In this document: piece by piece, positions 42,071-64,000 of the stretch | Layout: each line of letters starts with the position of its first letter | Position numbering within the stretch: position 1 is the stretch's first letter | Source: a virus | Direction: 5' to 3' (one strand) | DNA length: 64,000 nt | Virus record (IMG/VR): IMGVR_UViG_3300017781_004450 | Coordinates: 1-64,000 of that record | Notes under the pieces: generated by a model | What the model was told of the DNA's origin: nothing | What the model saw: only the letters and a program-made list of their open reading frames with translations | Databases searched by the model: none | Position numbers and translations under genes: made by a program

Positions 42071-43132
42071 ATGACACAAAAAGTTTCTGAAGTAACAACA
42101 GTTCATCTGGAATTGACAGATAAATGCCAAGCACAATGTCCAATGTGTGCAAGGAATTTCCACGGAGGTCCTACCAGACCTTTCATTAAGAACGGAGATA
42201 TGAGCATTGATGATTTTAAAAAATGGTTTCCTAAACCATTTCTAGCTCAGTTACAAAACTTTTATAGTTGCGGTAATTACGGTGATCCTGCGTTTGCAAA
42301 AGATTGCTTAGAAATTTATTCATATGTTAGAGAGTGTAATCCTACTACTAGATTAGCAATACACACAAATGGTGGTATGAGAAATCCTGAATGGTGGGCA
42401 AAGTTAGCAAAGGTTATAGGAACAGTTTCGAATAGTACAGTTGTATTTGCAATCGATGGATTCAAAGGCAAACATGAATTATATAGACGTAACACAAATT
42501 TTGATAAAGTTATAGAAAATTTAAAAGCATATATAGATGCTGGCGGCGAAGCAAGGGTAGATAGTTTAGTGTTCAAGCACAATGAAGATGAAGCAGAAGA
42601 ACTAGAAAAGTTTTTGCTAGAGCTAGGAGTCAAAGAAGTTAACTTTGTAAGCACTACACGTTTTTATGAGATGGAAAAATTTAAAGTTGTTAATAACAAT
42701 CTAGAAACAGAATATTTTTTAGAGCCTGCAACAAGACAAAGATTTGCTAAACAGCCAAATGCAAAATTAATTGATTTGTTAGATACAAGTTATCTAAATC
42801 ATGTTATGGAACAAGCAAAAATTAATCCTAAGTGTACTAGCGAAAAAGGTATATATGTTGATCCATACGGACACATAATGCCTTGCTGTTATATAGGTAG
42901 CGATTACTTAGAACAACCAATAGAAGAGATATTACCTATACACAAACTGCGTAATCAGAGTGTGCAAAATACAAAAGATATAATAAACAATATAGGTTTA
43001 AACACTTGCCAGTCAGGCATATTAGACACAGATGGCATTTTATTCGGTGGAATTACTGACTACTGGGAAGGCAAAGACAAGTGCATGACCTGTGTAAAGG
43101 CATGTTCAACTGCCATTGTGGAGCCTAAATGA
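42071..43132 (+). CDS. Radical SAM protein with SPASM/twitch-like C-terminus
   Basis: CQAQCPMC; GNYGDP; HTNG; C-terminal C...PCC...CxxCxxxC. Confidence 0.9.
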   Translation: MTQKVSEVTTVHLELTDKCQAQCPMCARNFHGGPTRPFIKNGDMSIDDFKKWFPKPFLAQLQNFYSCGNYGDPAFAKDCLEIYSYVRECNPTTRLAIHTNGGMRNPEWWAKLAKVIGTVSNSTVVFAIDGFKGKHELYRRNTNFDKVIENLKAYIDAGGEARVDSLVFKHNEDEAEELEKFLLELGVKEVNFVSTTRFYEMEKFKVVNNNLETEYFLEPATRQRFAKQPNAKLIDLLDTSYLNHVMEQAKINPKCTSEKGIYVDPYGHIMPCCYIGSDYLEQPIEEILPIHKLRNQSVQNTKDIINNIGLNTCQSGILDTDGILFGGITDYWEGKDKCMTCVKACSTAIVEPK

Positions 43133-44115
43133 ACGATTTTACTCTAATACCATTCCACAATATTGTTAAGTTTGGACAAACAACAATGCTTCAACAGCCA
43201 TTGTTTAACGTTAGTTGGATACTTGGTCGCTTCTGTAATTATAGTTGTAGTTACTGTTGGCCGTATGCAAACTCAAACGTTCCAGACCATCAAGACTTTG
43301 AAGTATACACAAATGCAATTGATGAAATTAAACGCCAAGCAAGAGCAAATGGATTTACTGAATTTCATTTTAGTTTTAGTGGAGGTGAACCAACAGCATA
43401 TAAAAAGTTTGGTGACCTTGTTGAATATTATGCTAATGACGATGAAGCAAAATATCAAAGCATACACCTTACAACTAATCTAAGCCCAGGTGAGAAATGG
43501 TGGGGAAGATTTATAGACAACACCAGCCACCTAACACGTCGTAGCATCACTGCAAGTTATCACGCAGAATTTGCAAACGAAAAAGACTTTGGAGATAGAT
43601 GCGTACAGCTCATAGAAGGAGGAGTATTTGTTACAATTAATCAAGTTATGGTTCCTGAACACTTTGAAGAATATTATGAACGTTGTAGTAGATTCGCAGA
43701 CAAAGGAATTAACGTCACTCTTAAACCGCAGTCCGACCCTACCGCGTCTAGAATAGTTGACGGGTACACCGATCAGCAAATTGAACAATTGCAAACAGGC
43801 TTTCCACAAAATTGGAAAGGTGAGCAAATCATGCAAATGTATTTAGAAGATGCTAAAGGAAACAATTATGGTTTGGATCAGGCAGAAAGAATGAATGCAT
43901 TTAACTTCAATAAGTTTAAAGATTGGAATTGCAATGCAGGGTATCAAAGCTGCGTTATAAGAGGTGATGAAGTTAAGAGAGCATATAGTTGCAGCGATAT
44001 CCCTTTAGGAACGCTACAGGGCGGTTTTACGCTGTTTAAGACGCCATCTAAATGCATTACTAGCTCTTGTGTAAGTAGTGCAGACAGCAAAATACCTAAA
44101 TTTTTAAAAGTTTAA
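43129..44115 (+). CDS. Radical SAM protein
   Basis: CNYSCSYC; SGGEP; C-terminal C.AG...C...C..C.S.AD. Confidence 0.9.
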   Translation: MNDFTLIPFHNIVKFGQTTMLQQPLFNVSWILGRFCNYSCSYCWPYANSNVPDHQDFEVYTNAIDEIKRQARANGFTEFHFSFSGGEPTAYKKFGDLVEYYANDDEAKYQSIHLTTNLSPGEKWWGRFIDNTSHLTRRSITASYHAEFANEKDFGDRCVQLIEGGVFVTINQVMVPEHFEEYYERCSRFADKGINVTLKPQSDPTASRIVDGYTDQQIEQLQTGFPQNWKGEQIMQMYLEDAKGNNYGLDQAERMNAFNFNKFKDWNCNAGYQSCVIRGDEVKRAYSCSDIPLGTLQGGFTLFKTPSKCITSSCVSSADSKIPKFLKV

Positions 44116-44959
44116 TTTTTTTGGTTTTGGATTTTTCAATTGGTAATGTAATTTTGTTTTCCCATTTACACAAACGACACTGCTCTTGAGGTTCTAATTG
44201 TGTTTTGATCCAAGTTTCAAACTCTTCAGGACTACACCCTAGATCTTGTTTTGCTATATCAGCAAACGGATCTTCTATTTGAAACTTTCTTGATAACTGA
44301 GGAAGTATTGCCTGTTGATGACAGCGATAAAATCTACCATCTACTAGATACATACATTGTATAGCAGGACACTTAGAATGCTGATCATCTTTATCTCTAA
44401 GTTTATCCCAAGTTATTTTGTTACCTTTTTTAACTACAGCAGGGTTTTCGTAAAACTGCCATGCTTCTGTAATTTCACCTCTTTCAATTCCGTCAACAAC
44501 AAGTTTATAATGCCACTCACCATCTTCGTGTCTAGTATCTTTGAATCGCTCACAGGATACATCTGCCCACCTATTGTGTATCCACGACATTACGGTGTCA
44601 AGGTCTTGTTGTGAATGTGCTGATATTTCTATTTTCCAATCACGGTCTATCCATTCAGGATACAGTTCATCAAATTTATCTAGGTCTCTCCCGTTGGTTA
44701 CTACCCATTTTTTAGCATTAGGCCACATACTTTCTAAGTATGCCATCCAATCTCCTAGTGCAGGATTAGACGTAGGCTCACCACCTATAATAAAAACTTC
44801 TTCAAAGTCGACTGTGTCTGGTAGAGCTTTTAATTTTTCTTTAGTTGTATCTGGCTTAAAATGGGTACCCCAATTTAAATGATTAAACGTGCAACAGCTA
44901 TCACACGCCAAAGTACAGGTGTGGGTTATATATACACTTAATTCAGGAAGGAGTAACAT
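44096..44959 (-). CDS. Radical SAM protein
   Basis: CTLACDSC; GGEP; TNG; Cys-rich C-terminus. Confidence 0.88.
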   Translation of the reverse strand: MLLLPELSVYITHTCTLACDSCCTFNHLNWGTHFKPDTTKEKLKALPDTVDFEEVFIIGGEPTSNPALGDWMAYLESMWPNAKKWVVTNGRDLDKFDELYPEWIDRDWKIEISAHSQQDLDTVMSWIHNRWADVSCERFKDTRHEDGEWHYKLVVDGIERGEITEAWQFYENPAVVKKGNKITWDKLRDKDDQHSKCPAIQCMYLVDGRFYRCHQQAILPQLSRKFQIEDPFADIAKQDLGCSPEEFETWIKTQLEPQEQCRLCKWENKITLPIEKSKTKKIKLLKI

Positions 44960-44964
44960 ACTCG

Positions 44965-44981
44965 TATTTATGGCTTAAATA
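44965..44981. promoter_or_regulatory. Back-to-back late promoter boxes, both 5 nt from a start codon
   Basis: TAAATA on - (44965-44970) and on + (44976-44981). Confidence 0.7.
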
Positions 44982-44986
44982 CACTT

Positions 44987-45592
44987 GTGAAAGTAGAACT
45001 TGAAGATATAAAATTTTGGATGGATGCAATTCGCAACAGCGAAGATCGCGACCGCACACTTGAAAGTTTTTGGGGAGGCCAATTAAAATCTAAAGCGTGG
45101 TTGGTTGAAACACTGCAAAAACATCATCATGTTGGTAATGTTAGTTGTGTTATATTTGGCGGATGGAATGGCGTATTAGCAAATTTATTGTTCAACAGCA
45201 CAATAGGATTTAAACATATTACAAGTGTTGATATTGATCCTAAGTGTGCAGAAATAGCAAACACAATGAATAAGCGTTACGAGATGGAAGGAAAATTTAC
45301 AGCAGTTACAGCAGATATGTGTGAGTATGAATATACTGATCAACCTTACATGGTCATTAACACAAGTTGCGAACACCTCACACAACAACAGTACAACAAA
45401 TGGGCAAAACGTGTACCAACAAGTACTGAAGTGATTTTACAATCTAATAATTATTTTGAACTAGAAGAACATGTAAACTGTTCTAATAGTGTTAGCAGTT
45501 TTGAAAAAAAATCTAAATTAAAAACTATACTAGTTAAAGATGAATTAGAGTTACCTAAATATACACGTTATATGTTAATGGGAAGATTTTAA
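44987..45592 (+). CDS. Class I SAM-dependent methyltransferase-like protein
   Basis: IFGGWNG, VDIDP, ADM, INTSCEH. Confidence 0.7.
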   Translation: MKVELEDIKFWMDAIRNSEDRDRTLESFWGGQLKSKAWLVETLQKHHHVGNVSCVIFGGWNGVLANLLFNSTIGFKHITSVDIDPKCAEIANTMNKRYEMEGKFTAVTADMCEYEYTDQPYMVINTSCEHLTQQQYNKWAKRVPTSTEVILQSNNYFELEEHVNCSNSVSSFEKKSKLKTILVKDELELPKYTRYMLMGRF

Positions 45593-46974
45593 TGTCTGAA
45601 TTAGACAAATATACAGACGCCATAGCCAAGGCCGCTGGCACAAAAACATTTTGTGTTTTACCATGGATACACTTTGCAACAAGACCTAACGGAGATATGA
45701 GATTATGTTGTTCGTCAAATGCTAGTGGTGCAGGTGGTGATCACGAAGTAGGTTTAGTTAAAATGAATCATGGCAAGCCTGCAAACTTTGGTCACGAAAC
45801 TCCTATGGAAGCATGGAATAATGATTACATGAAAAATGTAAGAACCACAATGCTTGAAGGTAATATTCCTGCAAGTTGTAAAAAATGCTTTGAGGAAGAG
45901 AAGAAAGGAGTTGCAAGTAAACGTGTTTGGGAAAGTTATACTTGGATGGAAGATGGTGTTGATATACCTGAACTTGTAAGACAAACAAAAGAAGATGGCA
46001 CAGTTCCTGAAAATTTAAAATATTTAGACTTACGTTTAGGACATACATGTAATATTAAATGCGTCATGTGTTCACCACACGATAGTAGCAAGTGGGTCGC
46101 TGACCATAAAAAATTAATTCCTGTATTAGAAGATCCTGAAGTTAAAAGGCAAATGCAATGGGATAGAAAAGAGTTCAATAACAAATGGCATGAAAAAGAT
46201 ACGTTTTGGGAAGAAATGAATGCACAGATTCCTAACTTAAAACAAGTATACTTTGCAGGCGGCGAGCCGTTAATGATTAGAGAACACAAAAGATTTATTG
46301 AAGAAATTATCAGGCAAGGATATCAAGATAAAATACTGTTACGCTATAACAGTAACGGATTGCTAGTTGATGATGATTTGATTGAGCTTTGGTCAAAGTT
46401 TAAGAAAGTTAAATTTGCTGTAAGCATGGACGCTAGTCACGAACGTGACGAATACATACGTTTTCCTACAAACTTTGAAACTGTAGAAAAAACATTACAC
46501 ATGTTAGATAACACACCTGACAACATACAAACAAGTTTAGCAACAGCAATTCAAATATTCAACGTAAAACACTTACCAGACTTTATGAAATGGAAACTAG
46601 AAAGCGGCTTTAAAAAATTAAATGTTGGTGAAGTTCCAGGTGGAGTACAAATGGGCGGTGGGCTAGTTAACATGCACTTACTATACATTCCAACATTTCT
46701 AAGTATACAAATTTTACCTAAAGAAGATAAAGAAGAAGTTAAAGAACGTTTTATGGACTTCAAAGATTGGCTATGGAAAAACTATAGACAAGATGACGAA
46801 TATTGGAAACATAATCCATATGGGTGGAAACGTTGGGAAGCAGTTCTTAATCATATGAATGCACAGGACAACAGTCACTTATTACCAGGCTTCAAGGAAT
46901 ACACAAATAAACTTGATGCTATACGAGGTTTAGAAGCAGCAAAGGTATTTCCAGAGTTAGCACATCTACTATGA
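45592..46974 (+). CDS. Twitch-domain (N-terminal) radical SAM protein
   Basis: FC..PW...CC...C..C N-terminal domain; CNIKCVMC; AGGEP. Confidence 0.9.
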   Translation: MSELDKYTDAIAKAAGTKTFCVLPWIHFATRPNGDMRLCCSSNASGAGGDHEVGLVKMNHGKPANFGHETPMEAWNNDYMKNVRTTMLEGNIPASCKKCFEEEKKGVASKRVWESYTWMEDGVDIPELVRQTKEDGTVPENLKYLDLRLGHTCNIKCVMCSPHDSSKWVADHKKLIPVLEDPEVKRQMQWDRKEFNNKWHEKDTFWEEMNAQIPNLKQVYFAGGEPLMIREHKRFIEEIIRQGYQDKILLRYNSNGLLVDDDLIELWSKFKKVKFAVSMDASHERDEYIRFPTNFETVEKTLHMLDNTPDNIQTSLATAIQIFNVKHLPDFMKWKLESGFKKLNVGEVPGGVQMGGGLVNMHLLYIPTFLSIQILPKEDKEEVKERFMDFKDWLWKNYRQDDEYWKHNPYGWKRWEAVLNHMNAQDNSHLLPGFKEYTNKLDAIRGLEAAKVFPELAHLL

Positions 46975-47975
46975 GAGAATTAATTAAAATTGCTACTACA
47001 CAAGATCCTGAAACATTAGATATTAGGTTCTGGCCAACTGACATTTGTAACTTCTCTTGCGAATACTGTTTTCCAGGTAGTGTTACTAACAGACTTCGCT
47101 ATCCTAAAAATATAGATACAGTAATAAAAAACTTTAGAGCATTATTTGATTATTATACATTAGCACATAATAAAACACATTTTAAGATTAACGTTGTAGG
47201 TGGAGGCGAGCCTACATTATGGCCTCACTTTGCAAAGTTTTGTAAAGAAATAAAAGAAAATCATAGTGTTCATATACAATGTACCACTAACGGAAGTAGA
47301 ACTGTAAGATGGTTTGAAAAAAATACACAAGATGTAGATGAGTTTGTTTTAAGTTGCCATCAAAAAGATGTAGACATTGATAACTTTATTGCAGTTGCTG
47401 ATCATCTCTTTGGAAGAGGAACAGATGTAACCGCACTTATGTTAATGGATGCAACAGCGTGGGATAGATGTATCGAACTAATTGAGAAAATGAAAACCAG
47501 TAAGCAACGCTGGATTATACAAGCAAAAGAAGTAGTAGATGCTCCCGGCTACGATATAGGTAGTTACAATGATGAACAAATGAAATACTTGCAGCAGCCA
47601 ATAAAACGTGCTCCAGATTCGGATTGGATTATATCTAACCTACATAGATTTAGAATACATGAAAGTATAGCAATATATGATAACGATGCTATAGTACCTG
47701 CAACACCAAACAAATATATTATGGAACAGGCAAACTATTTTAAAGGCTGGAAATGCAACGTTGCTATAGAAAATTTAGTTATTACACATGACGGTAGAGT
47801 TACAGGTAGTTGTCAAGAACAAGTATTTGCTGATGCAAATATTAGTATGTTTGCAGAGGATTTTATTTTAAGATTTAATAAAGCACAAATGGATTTAAAA
47901 ACTATTATTTGTCCAAGGACTAGTTGTAGTTGTCAACCTGACACACACATTACGAAATGGAAAGTTCCTTTGTAA
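46971..47975 (+). CDS. Radical SAM protein with SPASM/twitch-like C-terminus
   Basis: CNFSCEYC; GGGEP; TNG; C...C...C.C..D. Confidence 0.9.
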   Translation: MRELIKIATTQDPETLDIRFWPTDICNFSCEYCFPGSVTNRLRYPKNIDTVIKNFRALFDYYTLAHNKTHFKINVVGGGEPTLWPHFAKFCKEIKENHSVHIQCTTNGSRTVRWFEKNTQDVDEFVLSCHQKDVDIDNFIAVADHLFGRGTDVTALMLMDATAWDRCIELIEKMKTSKQRWIIQAKEVVDAPGYDIGSYNDEQMKYLQQPIKRAPDSDWIISNLHRFRIHESIAIYDNDAIVPATPNKYIMEQANYFKGWKCNVAIENLVITHDGRVTGSCQEQVFADANISMFAEDFILRFNKAQMDLKTIICPRTSCSCQPDTHITKWKVPL

Positions 47976-51640: not shown

Positions 51641-51694
51641 AACGATATTTACCAAGTTTTATACGCACATATCGTAGTTCCGGTAAATATGCAT

Positions 51695-52681: not shown

Positions 52682-52710
52682 AAGTATATTTATTATATGG
52701 AGTATTGGCA

Positions 52711-56993: not shown

Positions 56994-57439
56994 AATTTTA
57001 TATAGTAGGAAGCAACAAAGGATTAGGATTACATTTACGCAAAGAATTTAATTGCGTAAATTTTGATAGACCTTATGACCTTTCACAAGACATAGATGCT
57101 ATATGCTCTCACATTGATTCTGACAGTGTTGTTATTTTAAACGCACACGCAAAAGGTGCTCAGATCAAATATGTAGAAGCATTAAAGGATAGATGTAGAC
57201 TAGTTGTATGTGGCAGTATTGCTTCAACGTTTAAAGATTTTAGTATGCCAACATACAGTGAACAAAAGTTAGAACTTGAAAATTATGTAGTAGAGCAGTC
57301 GTTGCACAGCAAACATCCTATGCTCTATTTGAGATTAACCAGCAGCAGTTATGCCAACTATGACCTAATTAGTAATACTATTAAGTTTTGGTTAGATAAC
57401 CCAGGCTTTACATTTGCAGGATACGATATAAATGAGTGA
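56990..57439 (+). CDS. Minimal SDR/Rossmann-fold protein
   Basis: VGSNKGLG, LNA, GS, YSEQK. Confidence 0.6.
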   Translation: MKFYIVGSNKGLGLHLRKEFNCVNFDRPYDLSQDIDAICSHIDSDSVVILNAHAKGAQIKYVEALKDRCRLVVCGSIASTFKDFSMPTYSEQKLELENYVVEQSLHSKHPMLYLRLTSSSYANYDLISNTIKFWLDNPGFTFAGYDINE

Positions 57440-58034: not shown

Positions 58035-58568
58035 ATTAGCATAAAATTTATCGGGGTGTATTTCCCAAACTGTTTGGTCAGTATGCCTGTAATGCACTTC
58101 TTTGACTTTGCTTACAACACCTATCTTAGCAAGTGTAGGAAAGTATATTGAATGTACTAAACGTTGACTTCCTTCTTTACTTTTGTTTGAAGTTGCATAC
58201 ACTCTACCTTTACCTTTTGTCCATTCTAAACAAGCAGGAAGCATAAACTGATCTGTCAAGTTTTGATGTTCAGCACAAAGCCTATTTGCTTTTACTAATC
58301 CGTTGTGTGGTCTTGCTTCTCCAAACGTACATACTCTTGTAAGTATTCTATATGAGTTAGGCCCCATAACATCATCAAAGGAGTGAGCTGCTACACTCCC
58401 TATTGCTTTGTCATCACTATAAAGTATCCAAGCATTCCATTCACGTTCATTGTGAAAGCAGTCGATCATTACTTTTTGACTTGCGTTATTAACAAAGCCG
58501 CGGCGACCTGCTTCATTGTAAAACTCAGACAAGTCTAAGTCTTTGTGCCACCGTACCATCTTATGCAT
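58008..58568 (-). CDS. GNAT-like protein
   Basis: W......IG..A.H...YRI..R pattern; start inferred at 58568 or 58559. Confidence 0.4.
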   Translation of the reverse strand: MHKMVRWHKDLDLSEFYNEAGRRGFVNNASQKVMIDCFHNEREWNAWILYSDDKAIGSVAAHSFDDVMGPNSYRILTRVCTFGEARPHNGLVKANRLCAEHQNLTDQFMLPACLEWTKGKGRVYATSNKSKEGSQRLVHSIYFPTLAKIGVVSKVKEVHYRHTDQTVWEIHPDKFYANLELYPRWV

Positions 58569-59253
58569 AGATTGCTTTTGCCTTTTCCATAACTTCATCA
58601 GGGAAGTTTGTTTTAAAACTATCAAATGCTAGTAACTGTATTTGTGAATGAGGAGTATCTTTGTTTACGTCGATTCCAGCAGCTTCCATTTTAGGAAATA
58701 AGTCTGCTTGTCTATCTTCACTGATGTGACTCATTACACTGCGTAAACTAATACCAAGATCCTGATCACTATATGTAAAGAAGTAATTAATACTTTTTAG
58801 TTTCCCCTCAACTACAAAATAACTGCTAGGGTGCATACTGTATTTGTACAACCCCAAGTCCTTGTGTGCTTGAATAATCTCAAGCATTTGTTCTTCCCAA
58901 TTATCAACTACACTGTAGTCGTTACCTTCACAGCCTGCTAGTTCCCACATGTCAGGCCCATCAATTTTTAAGTATAATTTTTTATTGATAAAGTCAATAT
59001 CTTGTATTTCTGGCACATGCTGTGGGTACTTCATTTCCATTTGCTGTATAAAGTTAATTTCACGTAACCATTTTTCCTCCATTAGGTTAGGATCCACTAC
59101 TTGATTATGCCCGCCATGATATTGTTCATCATTGTAGTACCATTGGCAAAATGTCTTTTTATCCTTACTAATCAAACTGGTGTATATTAGATTATTTCGG
59201 CATTGACCTTTACCAGGAACTGTGTTATAATAATATTCAAAGTTGTTACTCAT
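58561..59253 (-). CDS. Kinase-like-fold protein, paralogue of 53619-54302
   Basis: Shared Y..L.S.D.KTFC..Y, PE..DID....K.Y and G.YK..M.P motifs; TAAATA-N5-ATG. Confidence 0.45.
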   Translation of the reverse strand: MSNNFEYYYNTVPGKGQCRNNLIYTSLISKDKKTFCQWYYNDEQYHGGHNQVVDPNLMEEKWLREINFIQQMEMKYPQHVPEIQDIDFINKKLYLKIDGPDMWELAGCEGNDYSVVDNWEEQMLEIIQAHKDLGLYKYSMHPSSYFVVEGKLKSINYFFTYSDQDLGISLRSVMSHISEDRQADLFPKMEAAGIDVNKDTPHSQIQLLAFDSFKTNFPDEVMEKAKAIYA

Positions 59254-59258
59254 AGTAC

Positions 59259-59274
59259 TATTTAACGGTAAGTA
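59259..59274. promoter_or_regulatory. Back-to-back late promoter boxes
   Basis: TAAATA on - (59259-59264) and TAAGTA on + (59269-59274), each 5 nt from an ATG. Confidence 0.7.
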
Positions 59275-59279
59275 TATAC

Positions 59280-60095
59280 ATGATTAGAGGAATTGGCGGA
59301 AAGCCTTACATTAACTTAGATTCACACCTAGACATTTCGTCTTTCAAAGATCTGCATCCTGAGATTGCTAGAGGGTTTGCATTAGCAAGAGATTATGCAA
59401 AAGAAGGTACTTGGATGGCTCCTGGCTTTGAATGGAAGGATAGCAGTTATATTCTTAATTGGAAACCAATTTACAAAGCATGGGACGAGTATCAAGCATT
59501 AGATGATAACGATCCTATTAAAATCGAAGGTAACAAAATATTGCCTACAGACTTTGGCGATTACAAACAGCGTAATATATTCACACGCTATTTAAAAGCA
59601 ACAATGGGTGCTAATGATCCATACATTTACTACTTCCTTTGGAATGAAGGTGACTGGAATGAACGTAACGCTGAAAGACAAAAGACTGAAGAAAGCAAAT
59701 ACTTTCCAGGTGTCGTAAAATGGGTAGAAGATTTACAAGCAAATAATATCATTGAACGCATTGGTAGAGTTATTTTCTTTCACTGCGATCATAATGGTAG
59801 AGCATTTGAACACAGAGACCTAGATGCAGACAACGGAGTACACGATGATAAACAATATAGTCCGCACAATAATGAATTCATACATATACGCTATCGCACA
59901 AAGAGAGGATTTTATATTTGGGATCCAGAGAGCGAGAACAAACATTACTTAAACTGTAACGCTGCTTTTTGGAATGACCAAGACTGGCACGGCGGAGAAA
60001 ACAGTGTAGAAGTTGAATACGGTTTACGCATTGACTGTAAATTTACAAACGATTTTAGAAAGAGGCTAGGGATTGATCATCTCAAAACATATTAG
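59280..60095 (+). CDS. 2OG-Fe(II) oxygenase-like protein
   Basis: EHRD...WHGG...RID. Confidence 0.6.
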   Translation: MIRGIGGKPYINLDSHLDISSFKDLHPEIARGFALARDYAKEGTWMAPGFEWKDSSYILNWKPIYKAWDEYQALDDNDPIKIEGNKILPTDFGDYKQRNIFTRYLKATMGANDPYIYYFLWNEGDWNERNAERQKTEESKYFPGVVKWVEDLQANNIIERIGRVIFFHCDHNGRAFEHRDLDADNGVHDDKQYSPHNNEFIHIRYRTKRGFYIWDPESENKHYLNCNAAFWNDQDWHGGENSVEVEYGLRIDCKFTNDFRKRLGIDHLKTY

Positions 60096-60099
60096 AAAC

Positions 60100-60600
60100 A
60101 TGGAGTGGATAGGTAACTTCGGTAAGGATCTAAGCAGAGACCTTAATGACCTTGTGATGATTACAGAAGGACAAGCCCGTCCTGGAGATTGGAAACCTGT
60201 AAACGAAGTTGAAAAAGCACTTTGGGAAAAAGGAAAATCCGCACTAGATTTTAGTAAGACAATGTGGTATGTATACGAGCAACAAGACCTACAGATAGAT
60301 TTAACATTTCCTTGGGCAGACGGTAAATGTCATTGGTGGATTACTAAACTTCTACCTGGGCAAATGATGCCTATGCACACAGATCCACATACTCATGATG
60401 ATCAAAACTGTAAACGTTATTGGGTTCCTTTACAAGATTTTATTCCGGGACATGTTTTTATATACGGTAACTCAATGGTAGCAAATTACAAGAGAGGTGA
60501 TGTGTTCCAATATGAAAACTCACAAGACGAACACGGTGCTGCTAATCTTTCTTTTGTTCCAAGAATAGTATTACAGGTGACTGAATACTCATGCCACTAA
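60100..60600 (+). CDS. 2OG-Fe(II)/AspH-like oxygenase
   Basis: PGQMMPMHTD...HGAAN....R..LQ. Confidence 0.7.
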   Translation: MEWIGNFGKDLSRDLNDLVMITEGQARPGDWKPVNEVEKALWEKGKSALDFSKTMWYVYEQQDLQIDLTFPWADGKCHWWITKLLPGQMMPMHTDPHTHDDQNCKRYWVPLQDFIPGHVFIYGNSMVANYKRGDVFQYENSQDEHGAANLSFVPRIVLQVTEYSCH

Positions 60601-61223
60601 CAATAGGATTTTACGGAGATAGTTTCTGTTGCGAAACATCTAACCCACATAGCATTGCAAAAAGTTACGATACTTATATTGAAAAACTAAGAAATCATCA
60701 CGATGCAAAAATTACAAATTTAGGATATGGCGGAAGCTCAGTGTGGGATGTCATGTTAAAACAATTTAATGAAAGTGATGTACCTGATATTTCTATCTTT
60801 TGCTGGACAGACTATAACAGGTTGTACGATGCTAAACTTAGAAACATTACAAAAGGCAGTATTGAAAACAAACAATGGAAGGATTATTCTTTCAAGGATT
60901 TATTCTTTCGTAAAAAAATTAATGCAGCAGCAGAATATTTTAAACATTTACACGACTACGAAAAAGCAAGTGTTGAGCAAAAAGCAGCACTGCAATACTT
61001 TGACCTAAATGTATTAAGCAAGGTAAAAAGTAAAATAATCCATATGTGGAGTTTTGAAAAAACATATGATTGGAAACACGGAGTTGAAATAGAAACTCCT
61101 TTGTATAATTTTGTTGATCAAGACATAAAAGGGTTTGACACATGGGCAGCCAACCATATAGGTGGTAACAAAAATAATCAAGATGTGTTTGAGTTAATTA
61201 ATGCCCAGCATCAGCTTTCATAG
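60591..61223 (+). CDS. SGNH/GDSL hydrolase-like protein
   Basis: YGDSF, NLG.GG.S, WT...R, terminal NH. Confidence 0.65.
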   Translation: MPLTIGFYGDSFCCETSNPHSIAKSYDTYIEKLRNHHDAKITNLGYGGSSVWDVMLKQFNESDVPDISIFCWTDYNRLYDAKLRNITKGSIENKQWKDYSFKDLFFRKKINAAAEYFKHLHDYEKASVEQKAALQYFDLNVLSKVKSKIIHMWSFEKTYDWKHGVEIETPLYNFVDQDIKGFDTWAANHIGGNKNNQDVFELINAQHQLS

Positions 61224-62292
61224 TAAAGTTAATCTTTACATCAGATACTGTATCTAGTACCTTTAATAATTTGTTTTGTGCAGTTAGCCTTTGTTCTAAA
61301 CTGTACTTTGCTGCTGTGCCTTCATAACAGAATACGTTAGATAAGTTAACCAATGTTTTTAGATTAACATCTAAGTAGTTTATAAGGTTCTGTTCTTCAA
61401 GCAAATTAGTATACACAAACAAGTAATCTATGCCGTCCTTACGTGGACATGTTTCTTTCCAGTAGTCTAGTGCTTTTTTATTATAATCATAAAACACTAC
61501 ACGCCCTTTATCTATTAAGTCTAAGTATAGTGTTCCACTAGCAGGTAGCACAACTTGTTCATACTTTTCTGTAATGCCAGTTGTCCATTCTGTGTTGTCA
61601 GTATGTACGAATTCTTCCTCGCAGTATTTTAATTTGTGATCAATATGTTCTTTCTGTTTTAAAAAGTCCTCTGTGCTTTCAGGATAGTAATGGCATTTGT
61701 TATTACGAATACTATCGTCAAATACAATAACAGGCAAGTTCCATTCAAATGCTACTTTTAATAGATTCCATCCATGACATCTGTTAGCATACGTAACCTG
61801 CTTGTACCCTTTTGCTACAGTTATAGGCGTATAGTCGTCGTGTATGTTGTCTACGCTGCGTTTAGGTTCTAGTTGGGTATGTACTATGTCTTTTTCTAAA
61901 GCGCCTACTGTAGGGCGTTTAAATGCGTTGTAGGCATCCATATTAATTACATAACATTGATGATGCAGTTCATAATAAGCATTGTGCATAGTACGATCTA
62001 ATATATGTCCTGCTACAAAAAAGTCTTGTTCTACTAGTTTATCTAGTGCTTCAAAGAACGCAAAGCCGTTAATAAATTCTGTGCCAGGACTCATTACTAC
62101 TGCATGTTTATAACCTTTTAGATTTTGTAATAGTTGATCTTCGTTTTTACCTATGTTTACTGTATACCCTTTGGTACGCAGATTGGATATTGTAAAGTCA
62201 ACAATATTTCTAATAGTTTGTTTAATGCTATCGTTTTTATATGTATCTATATCATCTACAATACAGAATGCTAATTTGTCATTTAAGTCCAT
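61198..62292 (-). CDS. Hypothetical protein
   Basis: 364 aa; TATAAATA box 6 nt before the ATG. Confidence 0.6.
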   Translation of the reverse strand: MDLNDKLAFCIVDDIDTYKNDSIKQTIRNIVDFTISNLRTKGYTVNIGKNEDQLLQNLKGYKHAVVMSPGTEFINGFAFFEALDKLVEQDFFVAGHILDRTMHNAYYELHHQCYVINMDAYNAFKRPTVGALEKDIVHTQLEPKRSVDNIHDDYTPITVAKGYKQVTYANRCHGWNLLKVAFEWNLPVIVFDDSIRNNKCHYYPESTEDFLKQKEHIDHKLKYCEEEFVHTDNTEWTTGITEKYEQVVLPASGTLYLDLIDKGRVVFYDYNKKALDYWKETCPRKDGIDYLFVYTNLLEEQNLINYLDVNLKTLVNLSNVFCYEGTAAKYSLEQRLTAQNKLLKVLDTVSDVKINFTMKADAGH

Positions 62293-62320
62293 GACAAATA
62301 TTTATAGCATAAATATTGGT

Positions 62321-62968
62321 ATGAACATCGAACTGATAGATCTTAACACATATAAAGACTTCCCTAAATTGCAGCCTTTTATTGATAGTTTTAAAGACTT
62401 TGATATTAATGCTGCGATAAAGTTTTTGGAAGATAAAAATGTCAAAGATACAGAGGATATGGATGCCGAATATTGGCATAATGCTGTCGGTACTGATACA
62501 GGAACAACATATACAAGTAATTGGATAATGCAAGAAGAGGACGAAGAATACCTCGATGATCCTGATGACTTTAAAGGTGCATGGAAATACATAAAATTTT
62601 ATTCACCTGAAGAATATATTCCAGACTTCTTAATGGAGTACTTTAAAAAGCACATTGACGCTTTGGCTTTTGATTATGAAGTTGAACTACATAGCCTTGC
62701 AAGTGGAGCAAGAATAGAGGATCATGTAGATAAGCCAGGAGTTCCTGTAGGTGAGTCTTCTAATAGAAACTTGGTTATTAGTTTGCAATATCCTAAAGGA
62801 CTACCACCTGACACCATAGGTGTTCATGTAGACAATAAAGCGTTTACTCCAGAAGCAGCACCAATGTTTATGTTTGACTCACAGTACCTACACGGTGCGT
62901 GGAACAACTCAGACGAGCCTTGGGTGTTTGCTGTAGTTTATATTCCTAGTGATAAGATAGATTTATAA
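62321..62968 (+). CDS. Aspartyl/asparaginyl beta-hydroxylase-like 2OG-Fe(II) oxygenase
   Basis: GA.I..HVD...FDS...HGAWN; start moved to ATG 62321 (TAAATA-N5-ATG). Confidence 0.7.
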   Translation: MNIELIDLNTYKDFPKLQPFIDSFKDFDINAAIKFLEDKNVKDTEDMDAEYWHNAVGTDTGTTYTSNWIMQEEDEEYLDDPDDFKGAWKYIKFYSPEEYIPDFLMEYFKKHIDALAFDYEVELHSLASGARIEDHVDKPGVPVGESSNRNLVISLQYPKGLPPDTIGVHVDNKAFTPEAAPMFMFDSQYLHGAWNNSDEPWVFAVVYIPSDKIDL

Positions 62969-63967
62969 TCTATTTTTTGCGTACTTGGGTAGTACGTTTT
63001 GTTCATTTTGTTTTACTTGATTAACATTTTTAGGACACATATTACAAGCATCTATATGTGAGTAGTGTGTATTATAAAAATTGTTTATAGCGTCTTGATC
63101 GTTAAGTGTTAAGTCCACCGGTTTGTAATTTAAGTACGGCTGCCAATCTTCATCGTCTAATTGTTTTGTTTTTGTTAGTACATTTTTAAGTGTACCTAAT
63201 GCTCCGCATTTGTAAACTTTCTTGTTAATTAGCATTGCACAAAAACAACTAGGACAACCATTCCAATATGATGATTCAGGATCTCCTTGATTAAACGGCC
63301 TTAATTTTCCTAAGTCATCTCTGTTATGTATTTTTTGAAAACTATGAGCTTCCATATAATATATGCCACTTTTCCCATTCATCCATGCTGCTTCGTTAGG
63401 AGACTCTTCCATGGTTAAGTCCATACCTTTTCGTCTATTAAACTCTTGCCAAGCAGCATTGCCACCTCCCAAGTTCATTATAGAAGACCACCAACTGCTT
63501 GTAGGTTCAACTTTATCATATCCTACACGAGCTGCAAGATCGTATACATTTTCTAACATTTGATTATGCTTTGCTAAAACGTCCCATGCTGCTACATGAC
63601 TACAAATTTGCATCCATACATTATGTTTTGTAATTAACTCTACAGCAAGATCCATTACCTTTGGTTTGTTTAATGCAATACCATTAGTAGGAAAGAAGAT
63701 AACTTTATCTTTTTCTTTTTCTAAACTTCGAATATGTTCAATAATTGCTATAACTGTATCTGTGTATAAGAAAGGTTCTCCGCCTAACACACTCCAACAC
63801 TCTACATTAAACTGTTGGCTAGCAAGTGTAACACTTTCTAAAATGTTATCAAGTGTAGGATCAAATTCTCCGTGTCGTATGTAGTCACTCCTTGTATCGC
63901 AGTGATCACAAGCAAGTTGACATTTGTTGCCGTAGAATATATCTAATATTTTAATACTATCGTTCAT
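62963..63967 (-). CDS. Radical SAM protein
   Basis: CQLACDHC; LGGEP; TNG; C-terminal C..C...KC...C.MC; related to 44096-44959. Confidence 0.88.
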   Translation of the reverse strand: MNDSIKILDIFYGNKCQLACDHCDTRSDYIRHGEFDPTLDNILESVTLASQQFNVECWSVLGGEPFLYTDTVIAIIEHIRSLEKEKDKVIFFPTNGIALNKPKVMDLAVELITKHNVWMQICSHVAAWDVLAKHNQMLENVYDLAARVGYDKVEPTSSWWSSIMNLGGGNAAWQEFNRRKGMDLTMEESPNEAAWMNGKSGIYYMEAHSFQKIHNRDDLGKLRPFNQGDPESSYWNGCPSCFCAMLINKKVYKCGALGTLKNVLTKTKQLDDEDWQPYLNYKPVDLTLNDQDAINNFYNTHYSHIDACNMCPKNVNQVKQNEQNVLPKYAKNRL

Positions 63968-64000
63968 TCTGTTTCCTATAACTTCTTGCTATAAGTTCCA

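What the first reader, a model, noticed from the sequence alone, without database searches (positions are those of the whole stretch)
42071..64000. Phage-encoded, late-expressed radical SAM / 2OG-oxygenase tailoring island (>22 kb)
Seen: 28 consecutive genes, including 8 radical SAM enzymes (CxxxCxxC, most with twitch/SPASM-like auxiliary Cys motifs), 7 HxD...H 2OG-Fe(II)/AspH/P4H-like proteins, a QueC-like PP-loop ATPase, a methyltransferase, a sugar epimerase, 2 SDRs, a GNAT-like protein, an SGNH protein, 2 kinase-like paralogues and AOX. The island continues past the window end. Nearly every transcription unit starts at a TAAATA/TAAGTA box, the same box that precedes the tail and lysis genes; I saw no TTGACA-type promoter reading into the island. 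Established: SPASM/twitch radical SAMs and AspH/P4H oxygenases frequently modify peptides and proteins, and T4-type TATAAATA promoters fire late. Inference: this is a dedicated biosynthetic or post-translational tailoring system active during morphogenesis, most plausibly decorating virion proteins or their glycans (or making a small molecule), rather than a set of early metabolic AMGs or DNA-modification genes. No precursor peptide is evident in the window.
Basis: partly seen in the sequence, partly recalled or inferred. Interest (0 to 1): 0.88.

Follow-up and report, generated by a model that had tools for sequence, protein, structure and literature searches.

The report
Radical-SAM and oxygenase island, marine jumbo phage
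A widespread marine giant phage carries a conserved 31-kb block of iron-dependent tailoring enzymes that appears to be switched on late in infection together with tail and lysis genes, but what these enzymes modify is still unknown.

Summary
Window 42071-63967 has 28 tightly packed ORFs, and 8 of them are radical SAM (rSAM) enzymes. On the 77,087-bp contig the island runs on to about 73,210, giving 11 rSAM genes. Three are N-terminal-twitch rSAMs (NCBIfam NF033640), a family that looks almost wholly viral. At least 9 AspH/P4H-type Fe(II)/2OG proteins, a PP-loop ATPase, an NDP-sugar epimerase, AOX and a GT-A-like protein are also present.

The core is conserved in all 80 IMG/VR loci examined (293 relatives found). 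These come from a marine jumbo-phage lineage of roughly 0.3-0.37 Mb. The periphery turns over gene by gene.

Nearly every transcription unit starts at a TAAATA/TAAGTA box, usually 11 nt before the start codon, which suggests leaderless mRNAs. The same box heads tail-fibre, virion and lysis units. Replication and nucleotide genes have TTGACA-type promoters instead. Relatives encode a gp55-like late sigma factor.

The phage also encodes IscS, IscU and SOD about 10 kb upstream.

The substrate is not shown. Late tailoring of proteins or glycans is the best guess (about 0.4). Nucleic-acid modification, small-molecule synthesis and an unlinked accessory-gene hotspot all remain open. Marine phage genomes with about 12 rSAM genes plus Fe-S assembly genes were catalogued in 2017.

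The parts
30408..30836 (-). IscU-type Fe-S scaffold (NifU_N). It has a TAAATA box at -12. It is a support function for the island.
   Evidence: Pfam PF01592, 131.8 bits. Box seen. The pair with IscS is kept at 82-99% identity in IMG/VR relatives.
30854..32125 (-). IscS/NifS-like cysteine desulfurase (class V aminotransferase), under a TTGACA-type promoter
   Evidence: Pfam PF00266, 290 bits. Promoter match at 32177(-).
32248..32826 (+). Fe/Mn superoxide dismutase
   Evidence: Pfam PF02777, 85.6 bits, and PF00081
42071..43132 (+). rSAM enzyme with C-terminal Cys cluster. It is the first gene of the island, with the box at -14.
   Evidence: PF04055, 45.5 bits. CQAQCPMC motif. phrog_21308, E 6e-25. 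A relative lacks exactly this gene (joint 42069/43128).
43129..44115 (+). rSAM enzyme, core gene
   Evidence: PF04055, 48.6 bits. Found in 78 of 80 loci, median 67% identity.
44096..44959 (-). rSAM enzyme. It is a variable cassette and has the box at -11.
   Evidence: PF04055, 30.1 bits. Present in only 2 of 80 loci. A relative lacks it cleanly (joint 44096/44988).
44960..44986 (.). 27-nt divergent intergenic region with two opposed TAAATA boxes, each 5 nt from its start codon
   Evidence: Read
44987..45592 (+). Class I methyltransferase-like protein, core gene
   Evidence: Methyltransf_25 at E 1.8e-4, below the cut-off. Found in 79 of 80 loci. A 31% identical homologue sits two genes downstream of the N-twitch rSAM in Ralstonia phage RsoM2USA.
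45592..46974 (+). N-terminal-twitch rSAM (NF033640). It is the most conserved gene of the island.
   Evidence: NF033640 at 394 bits against a cut-off of 170. SPASM hit at residues 21-99, ahead of the rSAM core at 150-332. Found in 80 of 80 loci at 84-100% identity.
46971..47975 (+). rSAM enzyme, core position but divergent
   Evidence: PF04055, 45.3 bits. Found in 77 of 80 loci, median 33% identity.
47950..48861 (-). rSAM enzyme, core gene
   Evidence: PF04055, 54.1 bits. Found in 76 of 80 loci.
48849..49658 (-). MUG113/T5orf172-like ORF inserted between two rSAM genes. It is present in only some relatives.
   Evidence: PF13455 at E 5.6e-4, below the cut-off. Found in 16 of 80 loci. Its presence or absence is seen.
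49651..50919 (-). N-terminal-twitch rSAM (NF033640), second conserved copy
   Evidence: NF033640 at 327 bits. Found in 80 of 80 loci, median 83% identity. AF2 model has pLDDT 88, and only generic rSAM neighbours appear in the PDB with TM <= 0.38.
50903..51640 (-). PP-loop ATPase with a C-terminal Cys4 motif. It is QueC-like only in part. Its likely start is the ATG at 51640, which has the box at -11.
   Evidence: Invariant SGGADS and CxxC..CxxC. phrog_1550 matches residues 165-248 only, E 3.7e-7. Pfam QueC gives no match. Start and box read.
51695..52351 (+). AspH/Cpz10-like Fe(II)/2OG hydroxylase, core gene. Its likely start is the invariant Met at 51695, which has the box at -11.
   Evidence: Profile A1 matches Cpz10 (7V4F) at E 2.7e-14. 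Start and box read.
52705..53622 (+). NAD-dependent NDP-sugar epimerase/dehydratase. The box is at -24 with a Shine-Dalgarno sequence.
   Evidence: PF16363 at 142.6 bits and PF01370 at 133.8 bits. Box seen.
53604..54302 (+). Protein-kinase-fold-like protein, paralogue of 58561r
   Evidence: 28% identity to 58561r. Profile A4 matches Ser/Thr kinases and Bud32 at E 0.002-0.008. This is weak.
54295..54867 (+). Small cupin-type HxD...H protein (A2 family)
   Evidence: Invariant PG, HxD and distal H. hhalign to the Cpz10-like family gives probability 84%.
54864..55439 (+). Alternative oxidase (AOX/PTOX type)
   Evidence: PF01786 at 227.9 bits. 60% identity to Kyanoviridae phage C48C1. Found in 2 of 80 loci.
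55423..55962 (+). Small cupin-type HxD...H protein (A2 family)
55947..56993 (+). Cold-shock domain fused to a prolyl-4-hydroxylase-type 2OG oxygenase. The box is at -9.
   Evidence: PF00313 at 34.4 bits and PF13640 at 45.1 bits. The closest PDB chains are named prolyl 4-hydroxylase (3ITQ, 5HV0), E 1.4e-24. The box is kept in 4 of 4 relatives.
56990..58034 (+). Two short SDR-like paralogues (56990-57439 and 57432-58034)
   Evidence: 26% identity to each other. adh_short at E 0.0048, below the cut-off. Gly-rich TGxxxGxG-type motif in both, and NNA and YxxxK in 57432 only.
58008..59253 (-). Kinase-fold-like 58561-59253 (box at -11) followed by unknown 58008-58625
   Evidence: The box is kept in 6 of 7 relatives.
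59254..59279 (.). 26-nt divergent intergenic region with two opposed boxes
59280..60095 (+). Conserved unknown protein with an H-x-D...H pattern. The box is at -11.
   Evidence: Alignment A5. No Pfam, PHROG or PDB relative.
60073..60600 (+). Small cupin-type HxD...H protein (A2 family)
60591..61223 (+). Unknown protein with an N-terminal GDS motif. SGNH-like by motif only.
   Evidence: Sequence read. No family hit.
61198..62292 (-). Two-domain protein with a GT-A-like/nucleotide-sugar-type fold. It is linked to AspH-like hydroxylases by adjacency and by gene fusion. The box is at -12.
   Evidence: AF2 model has pLDDT 77.6. Foldseek gives weak matches to glycosyltransferases, LH3 and COLGALT1 with TM 0.2-0.32. 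Residues 79-204 are homologous to a 679-aa protein that has an AspH domain at residues 521-660.
62293..62320 (.). 28-nt divergent intergenic region with two opposed boxes
   Evidence: Sequence read
62321..62968 (+). AspH-like hydroxylase. The start is corrected from 62153 to the ATG at 62321, which has the box at -11.
   Evidence: PF05118 at 25.9 bits. Start and box read.
62963..63967 (-). rSAM enzyme, last gene wholly inside the window. The island goes on to contig position about 73,210. That stretch holds AspH-like 63957r, rSAMs 64606r and 65503, aminotransferase-like 66365, paralogues 67278 and 68410, N-twitch rSAM 69572, and 70531, 71580 and 72083.
   Evidence: PF04055 at 39.1 bits. The downstream genes are covered.

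Best explanation
This is the window's share of a roughly 31-kb accessory island (contig positions 42,071 to about 73,210). The island is conserved in an abundant marine jumbo-phage lineage with genomes of roughly 0.3-0.37 Mb.

It encodes 11 radical SAM enzymes, three of them N-terminal-twitch rSAMs of family NF033640. It also encodes at least 9 AspH/P4H-type Fe(II)/2OG proteins, a PP-loop ATPase, a methyltransferase-like protein, an NDP-sugar epimerase, SDR-like and kinase-fold-like proteins, a GT-A-like protein and AOX.

It is cut into about 14 short transcription units. Each is headed by a TAAATA/TAAGTA box, usually 11 nt before the start codon.

Shown: the gene content, the conservation, the phased box, and its sharing with tail-fibre, virion-protein and lysis units.

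Inferred:
- The box is a T4-type late promoter read with a gp55-like sigma factor. The island is therefore expressed late, and largely as leaderless mRNAs.
- The enzymes act as a toolkit for covalent tailoring of macromolecules made late, namely virion or envelope proteins and their glycans. The chemistry would be hydroxylation (P4H- and AspH-like), sugar handling and transfer (epimerase, SDR-like, GT-A-like protein coupled to AspH-like genes), and radical chemistry by the rSAMs.
- The phage's own IscS and IscU, together with SOD and AOX, supply and protect the many Fe-S clusters in an oxic host.
For: Content.

Conservation. There are 293 relatives, and the best 80 are 84-100% identical for 45592. 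Core genes are found in 34-80 of the 80 loci and in conserved order. Five larger relatives hold 6-13 rSAM matches each.

Genome size. CheckV completeness is 21% for the 77,087-bp contig and 44% for a 159,618-bp relative. Family members sit on contigs of 355,908 and 313,180 bp.

Late regulon. The box is at -11 in 9 of 100 ORFs against about 0.08 expected. It heads the island units and also the tail fibre, virion-like 38821, the lysis-side units and IscU. It is kept at unit heads in relatives: 6 of 7, 4 of 4 and 4 of 13. TTGACA-type promoters head the replication and nucleotide genes instead. A gp55-like sigma factor is found in 3 of 5 relatives.

Protein or glycan leaning. 55947 is closest to solved prolyl 4-hydroxylases, E 1.4e-24. 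61198r has a weak glycosyltransferase-like fold and is fused to, or adjacent to, AspH-like domains elsewhere. An epimerase lies in the island, and PMM, KdsA and a nucleotide-sugar transferase-like gene lie upstream.

Fe-S support. IscS, IscU and SOD are present and the IscS-IscU pair is conserved. AOX is in the island. PMC5332604 (passages read) already linked viral Fe-S scaffold genes with many viral rSAM genes.
Against: - No substrate is identified.
- The tail-fibre-type proteins on the contig have no collagen-like G-X-Y runs and no EGF-like AspH consensus.
- The rSAMs match no peptide-maturase equivalog above its cut-off. They have no room for an N-terminal peptide-recognition domain, because CxxxCxxC starts at residues 15-36 in 8 of the 11.
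- The closest solved relative of the AspH-like core protein is Cpz10, which acts on a small nucleoside (PMC9814697, abstract).
- The glycosyltransferase-like fold of 61198r rests on TM scores of 0.2-0.32.
- 55947 carries a nucleic-acid-binding cold-shock domain.
- QueD, a PP-loop ATPase and ThyX lie in or beside the island.
- No gp55-like gene was found on this contig itself, although the contig is only about 21% of a genome.
- Timing was not measured. RNA-library contigs cover the island thinly and evenly and cannot be told from DNA carry-over.
- Gene-by-gene turnover fits a set of independent cassettes as well as it fits one pathway.
Confidence: 0.4

Rival explanations
1. The island is a hyperplastic accessory-gene hotspot. 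The genes are independent cassettes, each with its own promoter, that have piled up and duplicated at one permissive site. Their targets are unrelated (metabolic tweaks, counter-defence, stress handling) and there is no common pathway.
For: - There are about 14 separate units of 1-5 genes.
- Single genes come and go cleanly. 44096r is in 2 of 80 loci, AOX in 2 of 80 and 48849r in 16 of 80. Relatives lack exactly the 42071 gene or exactly the 44096r gene.
- Gene order is reshuffled among relatives.
- Conservation is very uneven, from 22% to 93% identity within one locus.
- A homing-endonuclease-like ORF sits between two rSAM genes.
Against: - Two enzyme superfamilies dominate, with 11 rSAMs and at least 9 cupin-type oxygenases, which argues for a theme.
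- A nine-gene core keeps its order in relatives.
- The N-twitch rSAM and methyltransferase pairing recurs in the distant Ralstonia phage RsoM2USA.
- All units share one promoter class.
Confidence: 0.25
2. The island modifies nucleic acids. The target would be phage DNA before packaging, or RNA/tRNA, giving hypermodified bases that evade host restriction or retune translation.
For: - QueD/PTPS lies at 37659-38108.
- A PP-loop ATPase with QueC-like C-terminus is in the conserved core.
- Several small rSAMs give their best, sub-threshold, hits to nucleotide-acting rSAMs such as MoaA, viperin, QueE and NrdG.
- 55947 carries a cold-shock (nucleic-acid-binding) domain on an oxygenase.
- A methyltransferase-like protein, kinase-fold-like proteins and an aminotransferase-like protein are present.
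- ThyX sits directly next to the island.
- Recalled: phage thymidine and 7-deazaguanine hypermodification pathways use rSAM, PLP, kinase and PP-loop enzymes.
Against: - No QueC, QueE or TGT/DpdA family membership was found. Pfam QueC gives no match. No QueE model is above its cut-off. TGT is absent from this contig and from 5 relatives, 0 of 6 records, all of them fragments.
- ThyX makes ordinary dTMP.
- No riboswitch or other Rfam family is present.
- The oxygenase part of 55947 is closest to protein prolyl hydroxylases.
Confidence: 0.2
3. The island makes a small molecule, either a modified nucleoside or sugar, a cofactor, or an antibiotic-like compound. It would be released or used late in infection.
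For: - The core AspH-like protein is closest to Cpz10, a hydroxylase of a nucleoside-antibiotic pathway (PMC9814697, abstract).
- Structural neighbours of the N-twitch rSAM include the small-molecule enzymes DesII, BlsE, MoaA and TYW1 as well as peptide maturases.
- An epimerase, SDR-like proteins, an aminotransferase-like protein, a methyltransferase-like protein and a PP-loop ATPase are typical tailoring enzymes.
- No precursor peptide is present.
Against: - There are no scaffold-forming enzymes (NRPS, PKS, terpene or sugar-nucleotide synthase) and no exporter among the island ORFs scanned.
- Gene-by-gene turnover would break a linear pathway.
- All structural matches are generic, with TM <= 0.38.
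Confidence: 0.12

Closest known systems
Marine T4-like environmental viral genomes with many rSAM genes plus Fe-S assembly genes (Nishimura et al. 2017, mSphere, PMC5332604; passages read)
   Same: That paper describes a 183-kb marine phage genome with 12 rSAM genes and an Fe-S carrier gene. It proposes that viral Fe-S scaffold proteins serve virally encoded Fe-S enzymes. The contig here shows the same pattern, with 11 rSAMs plus IscS and IscU.
   Different: That report is a gene catalogue. It does not describe the island structure, the N-terminal-twitch family, the AspH/P4H-type partners, the promoter class or the conservation. The lineage here looks much larger (about 0.3-0.37 Mb) and carries IscS+IscU, not the A-type carrier. 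I could not compare sequences, and the paper's supplements were not seen.
N-terminal-twitch rSAM clusters in cultured large phages: Vibrio phage K566 (255 kb) and Ralstonia phage RsoM2USA (344 kb)
   Same: K566 has four N-twitch-type rSAM genes within about 7 kb, three of them annotated only as radical SAM and one as hypothetical. RsoM2USA has one N-twitch rSAM two genes upstream of a homologue of the 44987 methyltransferase-like gene, and an epimerase nearby.
   Different: Identity is only 21-31%. Those clusters lack the cupin-type oxygenases found here, as far as tblastn shows. None has been characterised.
rSAM-SPASM/twitch peptide (RiPP) maturase clusters
   Same: Both have rSAM enzymes with auxiliary Cys clusters. 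Structural neighbours include SkfB, CteB, SuiB and EpeE.
   Different: There is no precursor peptide gene, no recognisable peptide-recognition domain, and no equivalog model above its cut-off. In three of the enzymes the auxiliary domain is N-terminal instead of C-terminal.
Hydroxylase-glycosyltransferase pairs for proteins (human LH3/PLOD3, COLGALT1; mimivirus collagen-modifying enzymes, recalled)
   Same: A GT-A-like protein (61198r) is adjacent to AspH-like hydroxylases and is fused to one in other viral proteins. LH3 and COLGALT1 are among its structural matches.
   Different: The matches are weak (TM 0.2-0.32). The hydroxylase is AspH-like and not lysyl-hydroxylase-like. No collagen-like substrate is seen on the contig.
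T4 late regulon (gp55 sigma, TATAAATA promoters; recalled)
   Same: The TAAATA core is shared by structural, lysis and island units. A gp55-like sigma factor is present in relatives. The clamp loader is T4-type.
   Different: The box is a hexamer with an A/G wobble. It sits a fixed 5 nt from many start codons, which would give leaderless mRNAs. That is not the usual T4 arrangement.
Phage 7-deazaguanine (queuosine-precursor) gene sets (recalled)
   Same: QueD/PTPS, a PP-loop ATPase and rSAM genes are all present.
   Different: QueC and QueE family membership is not met, and no DpdA/TGT was found.

Membership tests
Radical SAM superfamily (PF04055) | CxxxCxxC cluster-binding motif, and a Pfam score above the gathering cut-off | tested here: met
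   11 of 11 genes have the motif and score 30.1-54.1 bits against a cut-off of 29.5.
NF033640 N-terminal-twitch rSAM | Whole-protein score above the curated cut-off of 170 bits | tested here: met
   45592 scores 394 bits, 49651r scores 327 and 69572 scores 186. The other 8 rSAMs score below 43.
NF033640 N-terminal-twitch rSAM | Cys-rich auxiliary-cluster domain placed before the rSAM core | tested here: met
   The Pfam SPASM hit lies at residues 21-99, 9-69 and 4-62, ahead of the core. C66 and C69 are invariant, and C9 and C28 nearly so.
NF033640 N-terminal-twitch rSAM | Known reaction or substrate | not testable with these tools
   No solved structure matches by sequence. Only generic fold matches are found. 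No paper on the family turned up.
rSAM-SPASM RiPP maturase system | Precursor peptide gene next to the maturase | tested here: not met
   Intergenic gaps in the island are at most about 54 nt and no small ORF fits. A precursor elsewhere in the unsequenced roughly 80% of the genome is not excluded.
rSAM-SPASM RiPP maturase system | Match to a peptide-maturase equivalog model above its cut-off | tested here: not met
   The 10 rSAMs scanned give only sub-threshold hits, for example PapB at 36 bits against 340.
QueC (7-cyano-7-deazaguanine synthase) | Pfam PF06508 match | tested here: not met
   No match at E <= 0.1 on the contig, whereas 12 of 14 control genomes are above the cut-off.
QueC (7-cyano-7-deazaguanine synthase) | PP-loop SGGxDS motif and C-terminal Cys4 zinc site | tested here: met
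   SGGADS and CxxC..CxxC are invariant in 15 sequences. This feature is shared with other PP-loop families.
Phage 7-deazaguanine DNA modification set | DpdA/TGT-family transglycosylase and QueE | tested here: inconclusive
   TGT is found in 0 of 6 records, all of them fragments. No QueE model is above its cut-off. QueD is present.
Aspartyl/asparaginyl beta-hydroxylase family (PF05118) | Pfam score above the cut-off, or a profile match to a solved member, together with the HxD...H triad | tested here: met
   62153 scores 25.9 bits and 63957r scores 35.3 against a cut-off of 22.6. The 51689 family matches Cpz10 at E 2.7e-14. The triad is invariant.
Prolyl 4-hydroxylase-type 2OG oxygenase (PF13640) | Domain score above the cut-off and closest solved relatives being P4Hs | tested here: met
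   55947 scores 45.1 bits against a cut-off of 27. 3ITQ and 5HV0 match at E 1.4e-24. The substrate was not tested.
T4-type late regulon | Shared AT-rich -10-type box upstream of structural and lysis genes, with no -35 element | tested here: met
T4-type late regulon | Phage gp55-like late sigma factor | tested here: inconclusive
   None on this contig. It is present in 3 of 5 relatives that carry the island, with phrog_12791 at E 8.8e-75.
T4-type late regulon | Late timing of transcripts, and transcript starts at the box | not testable with these tools
   Only assembled contigs of RNA libraries were available. These cannot show transcript starts, strand or timing.
ISC Fe-S assembly pair | Class V aminotransferase (IscS/NifS type) next to a NifU_N scaffold | tested here: met
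   The two score 290 and 131.8 bits. The adjacent pair is kept in relatives.
Alternative oxidase (PF01786) | Pfam score above the cut-off over nearly the full model | tested here: met
   227.9 bits, covering model positions 19-216 of 216.

The most novel reading that the evidence does not exclude
The island is a self-sufficient, virus-encoded post-translational tailoring factory. A virus-specific class of N-terminal-twitch radical SAM enzymes, together with small AspH/P4H-type hydroxylases and a coupled glycosyltransferase-like protein, would chemically decorate virion or envelope proteins late in infection. They would run on the phage's own Fe-S assembly (IscS and IscU) and oxygen management (SOD, AOX). 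They would be expressed as a leaderless late regulon from minimal 26-28-nt bidirectional promoters. The rapidly turning-over paralogues would then be a diversification engine for virion surface chemistry in one of the ocean's abundant jumbo-phage lineages.
Probability: 0.25. Interest if true: 0.85.

Novelty: new variant of a known kind. Interest (0 to 1): 0.62.

Why it matters
The exact sequence is present in seawater metagenomes from at least 11 studies. The signature enzyme family has at least 2,894 sequence clusters at 90% identity. The island therefore belongs to an abundant, uncultured marine jumbo-phage lineage that spends roughly 8-9% of its genome on oxygen-sensitive radical enzymes and oxygen-dependent hydroxylases of unknown purpose.

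The N-terminal-twitch rSAMs are a named family with no known reaction, and they look almost exclusively viral. Finding their substrate would probably reveal new enzyme chemistry.

The pairing with phage IscS, IscU, SOD and AOX gives a concrete and testable reason why marine phages carry Fe-S assembly genes.

The phased box, 5 nt from start codons, suggests a leaderless late regulon with unusually compact bidirectional promoters. This can be tested directly by 5'-end mapping once a host is available.

Tried and rejected
- DNA similarity search of the island against 50,697 phage records found nothing.
- RNA evidence. Four RNA-labelled runs were laid on 41000-60999. Thin, even cover by assembled contigs (X15 had some depth in 30 of 30 bins) cannot be told from DNA carry-over. 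It shows no starts, strand or timing, so I draw no conclusion on expression.
- Cellular context of N-twitch rSAMs. The big protein search with A8 returned only near relatives from metagenomes, so no cellular neighbourhood was obtained.
- Fold of the N-twitch rSAM. The model is confident, but only generic rSAM neighbours appear, so no substrate can be inferred.
- Profiles of the PP-loop protein, 59280 and 61198r against PDB sequences gave nothing useful.
- hhalign of 59280 and of 61198r against the AspH-like profile showed no relation.
- A search for longer, fused forms of rSAM 42071 found none.
- No tRNA and no Rfam family is present on the contig.
- Collagen-like or EGF-like hydroxylation motifs are absent from the tail-fibre-type proteins.
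- The clamp loader and IscS were not found on five fragmentary relatives. These are fragments, so this carries no weight.
- The PA5oct paper gives only sigma70-type motifs and no late promoter (passages).
- Literature searches for a description of this island or of the N-twitch family in phages found only the 2017 catalogue (PMC5332604). I therefore cannot say that nothing else is in print, only that these searches found nothing. Supplementary tables of that paper and of the PA5oct paper were not seen and may bear on gene lists and promoter sets.

Full report
WHAT IS THERE

The window is the first 64,000 bases of a single 77,087-bp viral contig. From 42071 to 63967 there is a chain of 28 ORFs with overlapping or nearly touching ends.

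Pfam places 8 of them in the radical SAM superfamily above the gathering cut-off: 42071, 43129, 44096r, 45592, 46971, 47950r, 49651r and 62963r. All 8 have CxxxCxxC and further Cys clusters.

Other clear calls in the window:
- an NAD-dependent sugar epimerase/dehydratase at 52705;
- an alternative oxidase at 54864;
- a cold-shock domain fused to a P4H-type 2OG oxygenase at 55947;
- an AspH-family protein at 62153.

Thirteen of the 28 ORFs have no Pfam family at E <= 0.01, and PHROGs adds almost nothing for them.

The island continues on the contig. The added genes are AspH-like 63957r, rSAMs 64606r and 65503, aminotransferase-like 66365, a 44%-identical paralogue pair at 67278 and 68410, rSAM 69572, and 70531, 71580 and 72083. 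A tail-fibre-like Mtd_N protein at 73202r closes it.

The total is 11 rSAM genes in about 31 kb.

ENZYME FAMILIES

Three rSAMs (45592, 49651r, 69572) have their SPASM/twitch-type Cys domain in front of the rSAM core. This order looked odd to me, but it is a named NCBIfam subfamily, NF033640. All three pass its cut-off, at 394, 327 and 186 bits against 170. None of 14 control cellular genomes has a member above the cut-off. The nearest ESM-Atlas clusters are 97-100% viral.

An AlphaFold model of 49651r is confident (pLDDT 88). Its PDB neighbours are only generic rSAMs, namely SkfB, TYW1, CteB, DesII, MoaA and BlsE, with TM <= 0.38. The other eight rSAMs reach no curated family cut-off.

For the unnamed small proteins I built alignments from relatives.
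- The 51689 family has an invariant HxD...H and matches the caprazamycin beta-hydroxylase Cpz10 (7V4F) at E 2.7e-14 (PMC9814697, search listing and abstract).
- The 54295/55423/60073/71580 family has an invariant PG..HxD...H. It aligns to the 51689 family with hhalign probability 84%.
- Adding 55947, 62153, 63957r and 74791r gives at least 9 cupin-type Fe(II)/2OG proteins on the contig.
- The '2OG' half of 55947 is closest to solved prolyl 4-hydroxylases, E 1.4e-24.
- 50903r has an invariant SGGADS PP-loop and a C-terminal Cys4, but it fails Pfam QueC.
- The 53604/58561r pair is weakly kinase-like.
- 61198r folds with moderate confidence (pLDDT 77.6). Its weak matches are mostly GT-A glycosyltransferases, ADP-glucose pyrophosphorylases and the collagen enzymes LH3 and COLGALT1, with TM 0.2-0.32.
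- 61198r is adjacent to AspH-like genes here and in relatives. Its residues 79-204 are homologous to part of a 679-aa protein that ends in an AspH domain.

WHOSE GENOME, AND IS THE ISLAND CONSERVED?

The contig has a tail fibre, an endolysin, a T4-type clamp loader and ThyX. The clamp loader is 55% identical to that of the Pseudomonas jumbo phage PA5oct. It is 44-47% identical to those of Atu_ph07 and RsoM2USA.

CheckV completeness is 21% for this contig and 44% for a 159,618-bp relative. Family members lie on contigs of 355,908 and 313,180 bp. By my arithmetic the genome is therefore roughly 0.3-0.37 Mb.

A scan of IMG/VR with 45592 found 293 relatives, and the best 80 loci are 84-100% identical. 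Within those 80 loci, many of which are truncated, the genes were found as follows:
- 45592 in 80;
- 49651r in 80;
- 44987 in 79;
- 43129 in 78;
- 46971 in 77;
- 42071 in 76;
- 47950r in 76;
- 50903r in 42;
- 51689 in 34.

Gene order in 13 long loci shows the same core with a shuffled, paralogue-rich periphery. Five larger relatives hold 13, 10, 10, 7 and 6 rSAM matches.

Single genes behave as cassettes. 44096r is in 2 of 80 loci and AOX in 2 of 80. The MUG113/T5orf172-like ORF 48849r is in 16 of 80. Contigs of a related strain skip exactly gene 42071 or exactly gene 44096r.

The exact sequence is held (at least 98% of sampled words) by 14 seawater or marine metagenome runs from 11 studies, some of which may be the source.

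More distant cultured phages show the same theme. Vibrio phage K566 has four N-twitch rSAMs within about 7 kb. RsoM2USA has one N-twitch rSAM two genes upstream of a homologue of 44987, with an epimerase nearby.

PROMOTERS

TAA[AG]TA occurs 129 times on both strands of the contig. It starts exactly 11 nt before the start codon in 9 of 100 ORFs, where about 0.08 is expected, and in the -15..-11 bin in 13.

Reading the sequence, three more island genes fit once their starts are moved to a conserved downstream ATG: 50903r at 51640, 51689 at 51695 and 62153 at 62321.

The island then falls into about 14 units. Twelve have the box at -9 to -14 with no Shine-Dalgarno sequence. Two (52705 and 70531) have it at -24 or -33 followed by a Shine-Dalgarno sequence.

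Three divergent gene pairs are separated by only 26-28 nt holding two opposed boxes. A fourth pair, 50903r and 51689, has 54 nt after the start corrections.

The same box heads the following non-island units:
- the 2,217-aa tail fibre;
- 38821, which resembles a virion structural or tail-fibre protein (phrog_6002, E 3e-13);
- the units upstream of the endolysin;
- IscU.

TTGACA-N17-TATACT-type promoters head the clamp-loader, UvdE, KdsA/QueD, IscS, ThyX and Rpb6-like units.

In relatives the box is kept where a homologue heads a unit: 6 of 7, 4 of 4 and 4 of 13. It is absent where the homologue sits inside an operon: 0 of 23, 0 of 55, 0 of 80 and 0 of 52.

A gp55-like late sigma factor is not on this contig. 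It is on 3 of 5 island-bearing relatives, with phrog_12791 at E 8.8e-75.

From memory, T4 late promoters are TATAAATA and start transcription about 6 nt downstream. If that holds here, a box ending 5 nt before ATG gives leaderless mRNAs. Late timing and leaderless starts are inferences and have not been measured.

SUPPORT GENES

Ten kilobases upstream lie an IscS-type cysteine desulfurase (290 bits), an IscU scaffold (132 bits) and an Fe/Mn SOD. The IscS-IscU pair is kept at 82-99% identity in the loci where both lie in view.

AOX lies in the island. Together they give a coherent inference: the phage supplies Fe-S clusters for its many rSAMs and limits oxidative damage to them.

Nishimura et al. 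2017 (PMC5332604, passages read) already described a 183-kb marine T4-like genome with 12 rSAM genes and an Fe-S carrier. They drew the same link, so the general phenomenon is catalogued even though it is not explained.

WHAT IT DOES

Nothing here identifies a substrate. I rank the readings as follows.

1. Late tailoring of proteins or glycans (0.4).
   - In favour: the shared late-type promoter, the P4H-type enzyme, the GT-A-like protein coupled to AspH-like hydroxylases, the sugar genes, and the tail-fibre genes at both ends of the island.
   - Against: no collagen-like or EGF-like motif in the fibres, no peptide-maturase features, and Cpz10, a small-molecule enzyme, as the closest solved AspH-like relative.
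2. An accessory-gene hotspot without a common pathway (0.25). The cassette turnover favours it. The two-superfamily theme and the ordered nine-gene core count against it.
3. Nucleic-acid modification (0.2).
   - In favour: QueD, the PP-loop ATPase, the cold-shock-domain fusion and the ThyX neighbour.
   - Against: no QueC, QueE or TGT membership.
4. Small-molecule synthesis (0.12).

VERDICT

The finding is a new, well-defined variant of a catalogued but uncharacterised kind of phage gene set.

Noticed in passing
window 30408-32826: The phage encodes an IscS-type cysteine desulfurase, an IscU scaffold and an Fe/Mn superoxide dismutase side by side. IscS has a TTGACA-type promoter, while IscU has the late-type box at -12.
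   Followed up: partly
window 44960-44986, 59254-59279, 62293-62320; also 51641-51694: Divergent gene pairs are separated by only 26-28 nt (54 nt in one case). Each gap carries two opposed TAAATA/TAAGTA boxes, each 5-6 nt from its start codon, with no Shine-Dalgarno sequence. This looks like minimal bidirectional promoters giving leaderless mRNAs.
   Followed up: partly
window 51647-51688: An inverted repeat ATTTACC ... GGTAAAT spans the gap between the PP-loop gene and the AspH-like gene. It is kept in relatives. It is made of the two opposed boxes, but it could also be an operator.
   Followed up: no
window 48849-49658 (-): A MUG113/T5orf172-like ORF (GIY-YIG-related by my recollection) sits between two rSAM genes. 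It is present in only 16 of 80 related loci, as a mobile endonuclease-like insertion would be.
   Followed up: partly
window 33277-38108 (-): A block under TTGACA-type promoters holds UvdE UV endonuclease, a eukaryote-type phosphomannomutase, a nucleotide-sugar transferase-like gene, KDO-8-phosphate-synthase-like KdsA and QueD/PTPS. In other words, sugar and pterin/deazaguanine genes sit in the early-type class next to the late-type island.
   Followed up: partly
window 41766-41965 (-) and 41734-41757: A small basic, Lys/Ala-rich ORF of about 66 aa lies on the minus strand, downstream of the sigma70-type promoter at 42043. It is followed by a 10-bp GC-rich hairpin and a T-rich run before ThyX. 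The plus-strand ORF 41763-42023 is probably spurious.
   Followed up: no
L001 14573-14923 (-) = contig 76573-76923: A 116-aa ORF matches RNA polymerase Rpb6/omega (PF01192, 40.3 bits). It is preceded by a sigma70-type promoter. This is unusual for a phage.
   Followed up: no
window 4093-6417 (-): A 774-aa ATP-dependent protease (phrog_4871, E 5e-251) is encoded by the phage.
   Followed up: no
window 17623-23208 (-): Tail-region proteins carry He_PIG Ig-like domains (17623-20097) and a ubiquitin-E1 FCCH-like domain (20962-23208).
   Followed up: no
L001 11202-12716 (-) = contig 73202-74716: A tail-fibre-like protein with an Mtd_N (major tropism determinant N-terminal) domain closes the island. 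It is preceded by tandem TAAATA and TAAGTA boxes.
   Followed up: no
L042 and G001 (159,618-bp relative), positions about 120-122 kb: Besides the main cluster, this relative has three further rSAM matches about 90 kb away, so the lineage may have a second rSAM site.
   Followed up: no
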